Below are positions 2,836 to 60,732 of a stretch of DNA of 64,000 nt, one piece after another. Position 1 is the first letter of the stretch. Each line of letters opens with the position of its first letter. A program made the position numbers and the translations under genes. This DNA comes from Escherichia coli (lineage in GTDB: Bacteria > Pseudomonadota > Gammaproteobacteria > Enterobacterales > Enterobacteriaceae): NCBI RefSeq assembly GCF_041248615.1, contig NZ_CP158426.1. The stretch is one strand, 5' to 3'. Below the pieces are notes generated by a model. It worked only from the letters and a program-made list of their open reading frames with translations. It had not been told where the DNA came from and did no database searches.

Positions 2836-2980
2836 TGGGGCTGTAACGGTAAAGCCCTCACCGAAGCGAGGGCTTGAAGGAGAAGGGTTATGATGCGACT
2901 TGTCATCATACTGATTGTACTGTTACTCATAAGTTTCAGCGCTTATTAACAGTCAGTCTCAGGGGAGGAGCAATCCTCCC
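2836..2980 (-). ncRNA. sibC: SibC antisense sRNA (antitoxin to ibsC); boundaries approximate
   Basis: Sib RNAs are encoded opposite ibs ORFs (established); stem-loops flank the ibsC ORF (gccctcaccgaagcgagggc, gggaggagcaatcctccc); ends not determinable from sequence alone. Confidence 0.45.
2890..2949 (+). CDS. ibsC: type I toxin IbsC, 19-aa hydrophobic peptide (MMRLVIILIVLLLISFSAY)
   Basis: short ORF with SD aaggagaaggg upstream; sequence recognised as Ibs family; lies in the serA–ygfA spacer as in K-12. Confidence 0.75.
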   Translation: MMRLVIILIVLLLISFSAY

Positions 2981-3049
2981 TTACCCTTACTCACTAAATT
3001 AGGTCAAAGAATCAACGATGTCAATCAGGGCGATGCAGGTGTGTCGCCC

Positions 3050-3598
3050 TTACCACTCCCAGACTTTCGACGGTGTAACCACCGCAGGCAGTGGGATATC
3101 CCACTCTTCAACGGGGAGTTTTTCCACCAACTGACAATCATGCGCATAACCCACCGGTTGCATTTTATAGTGCTGCCAGTTTTGTAAGGTCCGATCATAA
3201 AAACCTCCGCCCATTCCCAGGCGCTGACCGTACTCATCAAAGGCGACCAGGGGGGTGATCAGGACGTCTAATCGGGAAAGGGGGAGCACGTCACGCACAT
3301 CCAATTTTGGCTCATGGATCTTCAACCTGTTCATCACCAGTTCGCTTTGCGGATGGTAATTCAGGAACAGCAAATTACCGGCACTAAAGGGATGCAAAAC
3401 TGGAAGATATACGCGCTTACCGGCGCGCCAGAGTTGTTCTATGAGTGGCTGGGTGTCGAGTTCGCCATCAAAAGAGAGGAATACAGCGACCGTATGTGCC
3501 ATCACCACCGGGGGATAAGTCATCATCCGGGTAGCGGCTTGTTGACCCATTTCCTGCTGTTGTTCCGGCGTTAACGCACGACGACGTTGCCGAATCAT
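3050..3598 (-). CDS. ygfA: 5-formyltetrahydrofolate cyclo-ligase
   Basis: ORF track 3050..3796; start refined to MIRQRRRALTPEQ (182 aa) because the upstream part of the ORF overlaps 6S RNA. Confidence 0.9.
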   Translation of the reverse strand: MIRQRRRALTPEQQQEMGQQAATRMMTYPPVVMAHTVAVFLSFDGELDTQPLIEQLWRAGKRVYLPVLHPFSAGNLLFLNYHPQSELVMNRLKIHEPKLDVRDVLPLSRLDVLITPLVAFDEYGQRLGMGGGFYDRTLQNWQHYKMQPVGYAHDCQLVEKLPVEEWDIPLPAVVTPSKVWEW

Positions 3599-3670
3599 TT
3601 TGCGGATTTCTTGTCGGGATAATGTCAGTGGGAGTTCTGGTAGTTGCGTCATGGCTGGTGCCAGATAAGA

Positions 3671-3856
3671 AGGGAATCTCCGAGATGCCGCCGCAGGCTG
3701 TAACCCTTGAACCCTTGGTTCAAGGTGAATGTGTCGTCGCAGTTTTAAGGCTTCTCGGACGGACCGAGCATGCTCACCAACCGCGGAGCGCCACATTCTT
3801 GTGGTATGAAATATCGGCTCAGGGGACTGGCCCGCTTGCGAACATCTCAGAGAAAT
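3671..3856 (-). ncRNA. ssrS: 6S RNA
   Basis: reverse complement reads AUUUCUCUGAGAUGUUCGCAAGCGGGCCAGUCCCCUGAGCC...GGAGAUUCCCU, matching 6S RNA from memory; immediately upstream of and co-oriented with ygfA. Confidence 0.92.
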
Positions 3857-3897
3857 TTTGTCTTCACGGTTACTCTACCACAGTAAACCGAAAAGTG

Positions 3898-4293
<396 letters not shown>

Positions 4294-4394
4294 CTATAGC
4301 TACCCTGATGAGAAGAGACAAGCCCTTTTCTGGTCCACCAGGGCCCAAAGTGGTAGCATATCATGAATATTCCTCCCTTTGACGACGAATGCTT

Positions 4395-4973
4395 ATGTCT
4401 ATACAGAACGAAATGCCTGGTTACAACGAAATGAACCAGTATCTGAACCAACAAGGGACGGGTCTGACCCCAGCTGAGATGCATGGTTTAATCAGCGGGA
4501 TGATATGTGGCGGTAACGATGACAGCTCATGGCTACCGCTACTTCACGACCTGACGAACGAAGGCATGGCTTTCGGTCATGAGCTGGCACAGGCACTGCG
4601 TAAAATGCACTCTGCCACCAGCGATGCCCTGCAGGATGACGGCTTCCTTTTTCAGCTTTATCTGCCTGATGGCGATGATGTCAGCGTTTTCGATCGGGCT
4701 GATGCATTGGCAGGTTGGGTCAATCACTTCCTGCTTGGTCTTGGCGTTACGCAACCGAAGCTGGATAAAGTGACCGGCGAAACCGGTGAAGCTATCGACG
4801 ATCTGCGTAACATTGCGCAACTGGGTTACGACGAAGACGAAGATCAGGAAGAGCTTGAAATGTCGCTTGAAGAGATCATCGAATACGTTCGTGTTGCCGC
4901 GCTGTTATGCCACGACACCTTTACTCATCCGCAACCGACCGCGCCAGAAGTACAAAAACCGACTCTACACTAA
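4395..4973 (+). CDS. ygfB: UPF0149 family protein YgfB
   Basis: ORF track 4389..4973; start at [15 protein letters not shown] (192 aa). Confidence 0.9.
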
Positions 4974-60658: not shown

Positions 60659-60732
60659 GCGGGCGTAGTTCAATGGTAGAACGAGAGCTTCCCAAGCTCT
60701 ATACGAGGGTTCGATTCCCTTCGCCCGCTCCA
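60659..60732 (+). tRNA. glyU: tRNA-Gly (anticodon CCC)
   Basis: GCGGGCGTAGTTCAATGGTAGAACGAGAGCTTCCCAAGCTCTATACGAGGGTTCGATTCCCTTCGCCCGCTCCA; cloverleaf with anticodon loop CUUCCCAAG and encoded CCA. Confidence 0.95.

What the first reader, a model, noticed from the sequence alone, without database searches (positions are those of the whole stretch)
3671..3856. 6S RNA co-transcribed with ygfA; the ORF-track version of ygfA is spurious upstream
ORF 3050..3796 extends through the 3' half of ssrS. The real ygfA start is 3598; the ssrS–ygfA dicistronic arrangement is established. ORF 3622..3948 (+) is antisense to ssrS and not a gene.
Basis: established knowledge. Interest (0 to 1): 0.2.

Follow-up and report, generated by a model that had tools for sequence, protein, structure and literature searches.

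The report
E. coli 6S RNA and fau

Summary
Rfam's 6S model matches window 3856->3673 on the minus strand over its full length (139.8 bits against a cut-off of 46.4). The sequence is 183/183 identical to K-12 ssrS and sits in the standard zapA-ssrS-fau(ygfA)-sibC/ibsC-serA arrangement, found once in 5425 of 5426 complete E. coli genomes.

The 248-aa ORF (3050..3796) overruns the 3' two-thirds of ssrS and is spurious there. The antisense ORF 3622..3948 is not a gene. ssrS and ygfA share a transcription unit; the literature adds Rho-dependent termination inside ygfA.

One claim does not hold up: "the real ygfA start is 3598". That is the K-12 reference call (182 aa). NCBI's PGAP pipeline calls 3652 (200 aa), and the evidence here favours 3652:
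- Pfam and TIGRFAM models begin 6 residues upstream of 3598.
- In 108 related loci, only 5 have a start codon at the 3598 position.
- Conserved arginines lie upstream of it.
- 98 of 108 loci keep an in-frame ATG just behind 6S.
- The AlphaFold2 model's first helix spans residues 13-25 of the 200-aa form.

Already known; low interest.

The parts
3673..3856 (-). ssrS, 6S RNA (184 nt; the K-12 record ends it at 3674). The pRNA template start U44 corresponds to window 3813.
   Evidence: Rfam RF00013 at 139.8 bits over the full model. 183/183 identical to K-12 b2911. PGAP ncRNA feature. Covariation in 55 homologues. U44 from PMC1874619.
3872..3901 (-). Proximal ssrS promoter (P1): -35 ATGACA (3901-3896, overlapping the zapA stop codon), 18-nt spacer, TG-extended -10 TAGAGT (3877-3872). 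The expected transcription start is about 3865, 9 nt before the mature 5' end.
   Evidence: Promoter scan hit; sequence read. The -9 position of P1 is recalled from Kim & Lee 2004 (paper not held).
4088..4116 (-). Candidate distal ssrS promoter (P2) inside the zapA coding sequence: TTGCAA, 17-nt spacer, TAGAGT, ending 8 nt upstream of 4080 (= -224 from the mature 5' end).
   Evidence: Sequence read. It scores below the scanner's 9/12 threshold, so one search did not list it. The -224 position is recalled from Kim & Lee 2004. Two tandem promoters P1/P2 are stated in PMC12152304.
3898..4227 (-). zapA, the upstream gene; it carries the distal promoter.
   Evidence: ORF list; annotation.
3653..3672 (-). 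20-nt pyrimidine-rich spacer (CUUCUUAUCUGGCACCAGCC) between the 6S 3' end and the upstream fau ATG. It has no Shine-Dalgarno motif.
   Evidence: Sequence and Shine-Dalgarno scan. The same kind of spacer (17-27 nt in most, 34 and 61 nt in two, pyrimidine-rich, without a Shine-Dalgarno motif) is seen across Enterobacteriaceae.
3050..3652 (-). fau (ygfA), 5-formyltetrahydrofolate cyclo-ligase, 200 aa, with the preferred start ATG at 3652. The alternative K-12 start at 3598 gives 182 aa.
   Evidence: PGAP CDS. PF01812, TIGR02727 and NF007661. PDB homologues. 108-locus comparison. AlphaFold2 model.
3589..3666 (-). C-rich, G-poor stretch of the transcript (C 33%, G 17%, the highest C/G ratio in the unit). 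It is a plausible Rho loading region for the reported termination inside ygfA.
   Evidence: Composition. Rho-dependent termination within ygfA as stated in PMC3299989, citing Chae et al. 2011. The link between the two is inferred.
3653..3796 (-). Spurious 5' extension of the mechanical 248-aa ORF, running through 6S nt 61-184 and the spacer.
   Evidence: ORF list. The open frame is not conserved outside Escherichia. No profile covers residues 1-51.
3622..3948 (+). Antisense ORF (108 aa) opposite the fau 5' end, all of ssrS and the zapA 3' end. It is not a gene.
   Evidence: No NCBIfam hit. Not annotated in any record inspected. Full-length and stop-free in only 3 of 88 loci, with stops in the best match in 41.

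Best explanation
Window 3673-3856 (minus strand) is ssrS, the gene for 6S RNA. Its sequence is identical to the experimentally studied K-12 RNA. 6S RNA folds into a long hairpin with a central bubble that mimics an open promoter. It binds the sigma-70 RNA polymerase holoenzyme in stationary phase and is released when the polymerase copies it from U44 into a short product RNA (established knowledge; not tested here).

It is transcribed from a proximal promoter just behind zapA and a distal one inside zapA, then trimmed to 184 nt. Transcription continues into fau (ygfA), the 5-formyltetrahydrofolate cyclo-ligase gene. There is no intrinsic terminator between the two genes. According to the literature, part of the transcripts end by Rho-dependent termination in the first ~90 nt behind 6S. 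That region is the most C-rich, G-poor stretch of the unit.

fau most likely starts at the ATG at 3652, 20 nt behind the 6S 3' end and without a Shine-Dalgarno motif. This gives a 200-aa enzyme whose first helix (residues 13-25) carries the conserved R-Q-x-[IL]-R motif. The 248-aa ORF and the antisense 108-aa ORF are by-products of the sequence.

Shown here: identity, structure, synteny, family membership and conservation around the start. Inferred or from the literature: transcription, processing, Rho termination and the start actually used in vivo.
For: 6S RNA:
- Full-length Rfam match at 139.8 bits.
- 183/183 identity to K-12 ssrS.
- Single copy in 5425/5426 complete E. coli genomes, at least 99% identical in 5413.
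- 31 of 46 consensus pairs show compensatory changes in 55 gammaproteobacterial homologues.
- Fold z-score -5.6.

Operon:
- Same strand, with no terminator-like site between 3673 and 3598.
- fau lies downstream of 6S in 110 of 113 testable loci.
- Co-transcription and Rho-dependent termination within ygfA are stated in PMC2848244 and PMC3299989.
- The C/G ratio peaks at 3666-3589.

Start at 3652:
- PGAP calls it, even on the K-12 derivative XL1-Blue.
- Position 1 of PF01812 and of TIGR02727 aligns 6 residues upstream of Met-3598, and the equivalog NF007661 is 198 aa long.
- PDB homologues 2jcb, 1ydm, 1sou and 3hxt align from residues 12-14 of the 200-aa form.
- Among 108 loci, the 3598 column holds a start-capable codon in 5.
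- The residues upstream of it are conserved: R 97/108, I/L 108/108, R 108/108.
- 98/108 loci have an in-frame ATG between the 6S end and that motif.
- Divergence by codon position in the 7 disputed codons is 0.44/0.25/0.69, like the undisputed CDS at 0.36/0.25/0.63.
- A natural E. coli variant and Citrobacter carry an in-frame 6-nt deletion in the disputed stretch.
- The AlphaFold2 model (pLDDT 92.7) puts helix 1 at residues 13-25 and matches solved 5-formyltetrahydrofolate cyclo-ligases over 186-193 columns.
Against: - The curated K-12 reference record (b2912, NP_417387.3) uses 3598. I could not find why, and a curator may have had evidence I could not see.
- Neither ATG has a recognisable Shine-Dalgarno motif, so ribosome-binding-site strength does not decide between them.
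- No direct protein or ribosome-profiling evidence for either start was found.
- The comparative alignment was made at the protein level from stop-to-stop translations, which slightly favours in-frame conservation.
- Rho termination, promoter positions and processing come from papers, two of which (Chae 2011; Kim & Lee 2004) I could not read here.
Confidence: 0.85

Rival explanations
1. fau starts at 3598, as in the K-12 reference annotation and. The enzyme is then 182 aa, and the 75 nt between the 6S 3' end and that ATG are an untranslated leader.
For: An ATG is present at 3598, and the curated NC_000913.3 record uses it. Reported Rho-dependent termination about 90 nt behind 6S (recalled from Chae 2011; 'within ygfA' in PMC3299989) would fit an untranslated leader. 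The ATG at 3652 has no Shine-Dalgarno motif.
Against: - Only 5 of 108 related loci have any start codon at this position.
- The invariant R and the conserved R-Q-x-[IL] lie upstream of it.
- The family models and solved homologues begin 5-7 residues upstream.
- The substitution pattern upstream is coding-like.
- Indels upstream are in frame.
- The protein would start in the middle of helix 1.
- PGAP and NF007661 use the long form.
- The ATG at 3598 has no Shine-Dalgarno motif either.
Confidence: 0.1
2. Both ATGs are used in Escherichia. This would give a full-length 200-aa enzyme and a shorter 182-aa isoform that arose with the lineage-specific Met at 3598.
For: The internal ATG is confined to Escherichia and Pseudocitrobacter, so it is a recent acquisition that could add a second initiation site. 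Both sites lack Shine-Dalgarno motifs, so neither is clearly dominant.
Against: There is no evidence of two products. A single Met codon inside a helix is the default expectation for an ordinary internal residue: the column holds 14 different amino acids across 108 loci. The short form would lack R13 and R17, which are conserved in 97 and 108 of 108 loci.
Confidence: 0.05
3. The mechanical ORFs are real genes: either the 248-aa frame from 3796 (a protein overlapping 6S in sense) or the antisense 108-aa frame 3622..3948.
For: Both frames are open in the window. The antisense frame stays open in close relatives.
Against: - The sense frame is closed by stops inside or just after 6S in all genera except Escherichia.
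- No profile covers residues 1-51.
- The antisense frame has no family hit and is not annotated in any record inspected.
- The antisense frame is full-length in 3 of 88 loci and interrupted in 41. Its apparent conservation only tracks the nucleotide conservation of 6S.
Confidence: 0.01

Closest known systems
E. coli K-12 ssrS (b2911), 6S RNA, Rfam RF00013
   Same: Identical sequence (183/183). Same neighbours (zapA upstream, fau downstream). Same closing stem, central bubble and apical stem architecture. Same U44 template position.
   Different: Nothing in the RNA differs.
E. coli fau/ygfA (b2912), 5-formyltetrahydrofolate cyclo-ligase; PF01812, TIGR02727, NCBIfam NF007661 (PRK10333)
   Same: One amino-acid difference from K-12 over the shared 182 residues (T146M). 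Full-length matches to all three models. The predicted fold matches solved enzymes 2jcb, 1ydm, 1sou and 3hxt.
   Different: The K-12 reference product is 18 residues shorter at the N-terminus than the PGAP product and than the evidence here favours.
ssrS-ygfA dual-function transcription unit with Rho-dependent termination (Hsu et al. 1985; Chae et al. 2011, as cited in PMC3299989 and PMC2848244)
   Same: Same locus, same gene order, no intrinsic terminator between the genes, and a C-rich G-poor stretch directly behind 6S.
   Different: With the start at 3652, the reported termination zone lies inside the coding sequence rather than in a leader. That consequence is inferred here, not taken from those papers.

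Membership tests
6S RNA (Rfam RF00013) | Covariance-model score above the curated gathering threshold over the full model | tested here: met
   139.8 bits against 46.4, model positions 1-187 of 187, E = 4e-29 (repeated on the whole window).
6S RNA (Rfam RF00013) | Extended hairpin with closing stem, large central bubble and apical stem, supported by covariation | tested here: met
   RNAalifold on 55 homologues gave 46 pairs, 31 of them with compensatory changes. The closing, internal and apical stems are all supported, and the 5' strand of the bubble is left unpaired. Single-sequence fold: z = -5.6. The small hairpin on the 3' side of the bubble could not be tested, because the search pattern fixed its sequence.
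6S RNA (Rfam RF00013) | Binding to the sigma-70 holoenzyme and templating of product RNA from U44 | not testable with these tools
   Taken over from K-12 because the sequence is identical. U44 start reported in PMC1874619.
6S RNA (Rfam RF00013) | Conserved gammaproteobacterial synteny: zapA upstream, 5-formyltetrahydrofolate cyclo-ligase downstream on the same strand | tested here: met
   Annotations. fau was found downstream of the 6S match in 110 of 113 loci with enough sequence.
5-formyltetrahydrofolate cyclo-ligase (PF01812 / TIGR02727 / NF007661) | Profile scores above curated cut-offs | tested here: met
   PF01812: 162.1 bits (cut-off 27). TIGR02727: 178.7 (84.9). NF007661 equivalog: 446.9 (343).
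5-formyltetrahydrofolate cyclo-ligase (PF01812 / TIGR02727 / NF007661) | Fold of the solved enzymes | tested here: met
   AlphaFold2 pLDDT 92.7, pTM 0.88. Foldseek: 2jcb E = 6e-17, TM 0.84-0.88; also 1ydm, 1sou, 3hxt/3hy3 and 1sbq.
5-formyltetrahydrofolate cyclo-ligase (PF01812 / TIGR02727 / NF007661) | Complete N-terminal helix with the conserved R/K-x-x-[IL]-R motif (position 1 of the family models) | tested here: met
   Met only if the CDS starts at 3652. Model position 1 aligns to residue 61 of the 248-aa ORF, which is residue 13 of the 200-aa form. Helix 1 spans residues 13-25. With the start at 3598 this feature is not met.
5-formyltetrahydrofolate cyclo-ligase (PF01812 / TIGR02727 / NF007661) | ATP-dependent conversion of 5-formyl-THF to 5,10-methenyl-THF | not testable with these tools
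   Needs an enzymatic assay.
ssrS-fau dicistronic transcription unit | Same strand, short spacer, no intrinsic terminator between the genes | tested here: met
   20-nt spacer (75 nt with the K-12 start). No terminator-like site between 3673 and 3598.
ssrS-fau dicistronic transcription unit | A transcript spanning both genes; partial Rho-dependent termination inside fau | not testable with these tools
   From the literature only (PMC2848244, PMC3299989). Composition is consistent with it.

The most novel reading that the evidence does not exclude
The K-12 reference start of fau is 18 codons too short. The true start lies only 20 nt behind the 6S 3' end, on a C-rich leader with no Shine-Dalgarno motif. 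Ribosome loading at 3652 and Rho loading on 3666-3589 would then compete on the same RNA. How much Fau is made, and how the 6S 3' end is generated, would be mechanically coupled to translation initiation efficiency. This arrangement would be conserved across Enterobacteriaceae, where the ATG sits 17-27 nt behind 6S in most genera sampled.
Probability: 0.2. Interest if true: 0.35.

Novelty: already known. Interest (0 to 1): 0.1.

Why it matters
It matters little for discovery. 6S RNA, its promoters, its processing and its linkage to ygfA have been studied since the 1970s-80s, and the window copy is identical to the studied one.

The practical value is in annotation. A mechanical ORF list mis-extends fau by 48 codons into an RNA gene, while the widely used K-12 reference record probably truncates it by 18 codons. 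That truncation removes half of the first helix and two conserved arginines. Anyone cloning, tagging or deleting ygfA from the K-12 coordinates, or designing ssrS deletions meant to leave ygfA intact, should take the 3652 start into account, because it lies only 20 nt from the 6S 3' end.

Tried and rejected
- Direct evidence for the start: the Ribo-RET preprint (10.1101/520783) has no supplementary tables held. The supplements of the TRAINSPOTTER N-terminomics paper contain no ygfA/fau/b2912/P0AC28 entry. The plasmid mutant 'M2' in PMC3299989 is not defined in the text.
- Primary papers on ssrS transcription and termination are not held: Chae 2011 (PMC3012964), Kim & Lee 2004 (PMC534622) and Lee 2013 (PMC3887979). 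Their numbers (-9, -224, about 90 nt) are therefore given from memory and marked as such.
- Literature searches for ATP-contacting N-terminal residues of MTHFS (Lys10/Arg14 in the human enzyme, as I recall) found nothing usable. I do not rely on that.
- A Shine-Dalgarno scan did not discriminate. Neither E. coli ATG has a motif, and only 21 of 98 loci show one before the upstream ATG.
- The terminator-like site at 3223-3208 inside fau is within chance expectation (1 found, 1.5 expected) and was dropped.
- Considered and rejected: the 248-aa sense ORF and the antisense ORF as genes.

Full report
**What is there**

The window is E. coli. Bases 2850-4400 are 100% identical to strains C, B/BL21-type and others, and match 5425 of 5426 complete genomes. 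The stretch is the reverse complement of the K-12 map order. On the window's plus strand it reads serA, ibsC/sibC, then on the minus strand fau (ygfA), ssrS and zapA, then ygfB and pepP on the plus strand.

Rfam's 6S model matches window 3856->3673 on the minus strand:
- The match is end to end (model 1-187 of 187), 139.8 bits against a gathering score of 46.4, E = 4e-29.
- It is one of only three Rfam hits in the whole 64 kb. The others are SibC and a tRNA.
- The RNA is 183/183 identical to K-12 ssrS.
- PGAP annotates 184 nt (3673..3856) and K-12 annotates 183 nt.
- Alone it folds at -80.5 kcal/mol, z = -5.6.

**Is it really a 6S RNA**

I scanned one genome per species for a conserved 6S segment.

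An alignment of 55 non-redundant copies gives a consensus with 46 pairs, 31 of which show compensatory changes. The closing stem, the internal stem and the apical stem are all supported. The 5' side of the central bubble, which holds the invariant CUGAGCCGAUA element, stays unpaired.

The hairpin on the 3' side of the bubble could not be tested, because my search pattern fixed its sequence. Position U44, from which RNA polymerase copies 6S into product RNA (PMC1874619), is window 3813. RNA polymerase binding cannot be tested here, but the sequence is the one on which those experiments were done.

**Transcription**

A promoter-like site sits directly upstream:
- The -35 is ATGACA (3901-3896), overlapping the zapA stop codon.
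- An 18-nt spacer and a TG-extended -10, TAGAGT (3877-3872), follow.
- This places a start about 9 nt before the mature 5' end, as I recall for P1 from Kim & Lee 2004 (not held here).

A second TTGCAA-17-TAGAGT lies inside zapA (4116-4088). It ends 8 nt before position 4080, which is -224 from the mature end, the position I recall for P2. A 2025 review confirms two tandem promoters and maturation by RNase E/G and exonucleases (PMC12152304).

No terminator-like site lies between ssrS and fau. fau follows 6S on the same strand in 110 of 113 loci with enough sequence.

Co-transcription of ssrS and ygfA is stated in PMC2848244. PMC3299989, citing Chae et al. [quoted passage not shown] In keeping with this, the RNA is most C-rich and G-poor exactly behind 6S (3666-3589: C 33%, G 17%, C/G 2.0).

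'Dicistronic' is therefore right, but read-through into fau is partial.

**The ORFs**

The 248-aa ORF (3796->3050) is a mechanical artefact upstream of fau:
- The frame is open back to that point only in Escherichia.
- In Citrobacter, Enterobacter, Kluyvera and others it is closed 47-72 nt inside 6S, and in many genera only downstream of 6S.
- No profile covers its first 51 residues.

The antisense ORF 3622..3948 is not a gene:
- It has no family match.
- It is not annotated in any record inspected.
- It is full-length without stops in 3 of 88 loci and interrupted in 41.
- Its apparent conservation only mirrors the nucleotide conservation of 6S.

**The start of fau**

Two in-frame ATGs compete:
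- 3652 (MTQLPELPLTLSRQEIRKMIRQRRR..., 200 aa) is used by PGAP in E. coli C, and also in the K-12 derivative XL1-Blue.

Independent lines of evidence favour 3652.

1. Family profiles.
   - Position 1 of Pfam PF01812 and of TIGR02727 aligns to residue 61 of the 248-aa ORF, six residues before Met-3598.
   - The NCBIfam equivalog NF007661 is 198 residues long.
2. Solved homologues from Bacillus anthracis, B. subtilis, Aquifex and human align from residues 12-14 of the 200-aa form. That corresponds to residue 3 of the B. subtilis and Aquifex chains.
3. Comparison of 108 loci.
   - The column of Met-3598 holds 14 different amino acids.
   - It has a start-capable codon in only 5 loci (Escherichia and Pseudocitrobacter).
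   - The residues just upstream are conserved: R at -6 in 97, I/L at -3 in 108, R at -2 in 108.
   - 98 loci have an in-frame ATG between the 6S 3' end and that motif.
4. Divergence by codon position.
   - The seven codons upstream of 3598 diverge 0.44/0.25/0.69 at codon positions 1/2/3.
   - That is the coding pattern of the undisputed gene, 0.36/0.25/0.63.
5. A natural E. coli strain (Z1323HEC0477) and Citrobacter both lack 6 nt in the disputed stretch, in frame.
6. Structure model.
   - An AlphaFold2 model of the 200-aa form (pLDDT 92.7) has its first helix at residues 13-25.
   - It matches solved cyclo-ligases with TM 0.75-0.88.
   - A start at 3598 (residue 19) would cut that helix in half and remove R13 and R17.

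Against 3652:
- The curated K-12 record disagrees, for reasons I could not trace.
- Neither ATG has a Shine-Dalgarno motif.
- I found no N-terminal peptide or start-site profiling data for this gene.

I put about 0.8 on 3652 as the main start, 0.1 on 3598 and 0.05 on both.

**Consequences**

With the start at 3652:
- fau begins 20 nt behind the 6S 3' end, after a pyrimidine-rich spacer.
- The same layout (17-27 nt in most genera, 34 and 61 nt in two, pyrimidine-rich, no Shine-Dalgarno motif) recurs across Enterobacteriaceae.
- The reported Rho termination zone would then lie within the first codons of the gene.

Whether weak initiation at this ATG sets the balance between termination and read-through is an inference I could not test.

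**Comparison and verdict**

Everything essential here is known: 6S RNA, its structure, its promoters, its linkage to ygfA, and the enzyme family of the downstream gene. The long form of Fau is already the PGAP and NCBIfam standard. So even the correction is a discrepancy between public annotations rather than a discovery.

Novelty: already known. Interest: 0.1.

Noticed in passing
window 2874-3024 (-) and 2890-2949 (+): SibC antitoxin sRNA (Rfam RF00113, 133.8 bits) with the 19-aa IbsC toxin ORF (MMRLVIILIVLLLISFSAY) on the opposite strand, directly downstream of fau. This is a known type I toxin-antitoxin pair.
   Followed up: partly
window 3598 vs 3652 (-); NC_000913.3 b2912 vs PGAP WP_001298273.1 / WP_000192748.1: Public annotations disagree on the fau start: 182 aa in the curated K-12 record, 200 aa in PGAP records, including a K-12 derivative. 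The evidence gathered here favours the 200-aa form.
   Followed up: yes
L124 (E. coli Z1323HEC0477, NZ_CP148323.1), locus 909-1505; corresponds to window ~3620-3625: A natural in-frame 6-nt deletion (loss of two residues, giving ...ELPLSRQ...) lies between the two candidate fau starts. It yields a 198-aa product, like Citrobacter.
   Followed up: yes
window 3162: The window's Fau differs from K-12 by one residue: Thr146 to Met in 182-aa numbering, or 164 in 200-aa numbering. The other eight nucleotide differences across zapA-ssrS-fau are silent, and ssrS itself is identical.
   Followed up: partly
window 3872-3901 and 4088-4116 (-): Both the proximal and the candidate distal ssrS promoter carry the same -10 hexamer, TAGAGT. 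The proximal -35 overlaps the zapA stop codon, and the distal promoter lies inside the zapA coding sequence.
   Followed up: partly
loci L027, L030, L047, L072, L082, L098, L102, L121 (Billgrantia/Halomonas) and L080 (Pseudomonas oryzihabitans): In these genera the fau ATG lies only 7-10 nt behind the estimated 6S 3' end. The G-rich 3' strand of the 6S closing stem (GGGGA/GGAGA) is then the only purine-rich element upstream of the start codon. 6S ends in these loci were extrapolated from E. coli, not mapped.
   Followed up: no
L014 (Arsenophonus nasoniae), alignment A1 columns 126-142: The 6S homologue carries an insertion of about 17 nt in the apical loop relative to all other sequences aligned.
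   Followed up: no
window 60659-60729 (+): A tRNA gene (Rfam RF00005, 71.6 bits). It is the only other RNA-family hit in the window.
   Followed up: no
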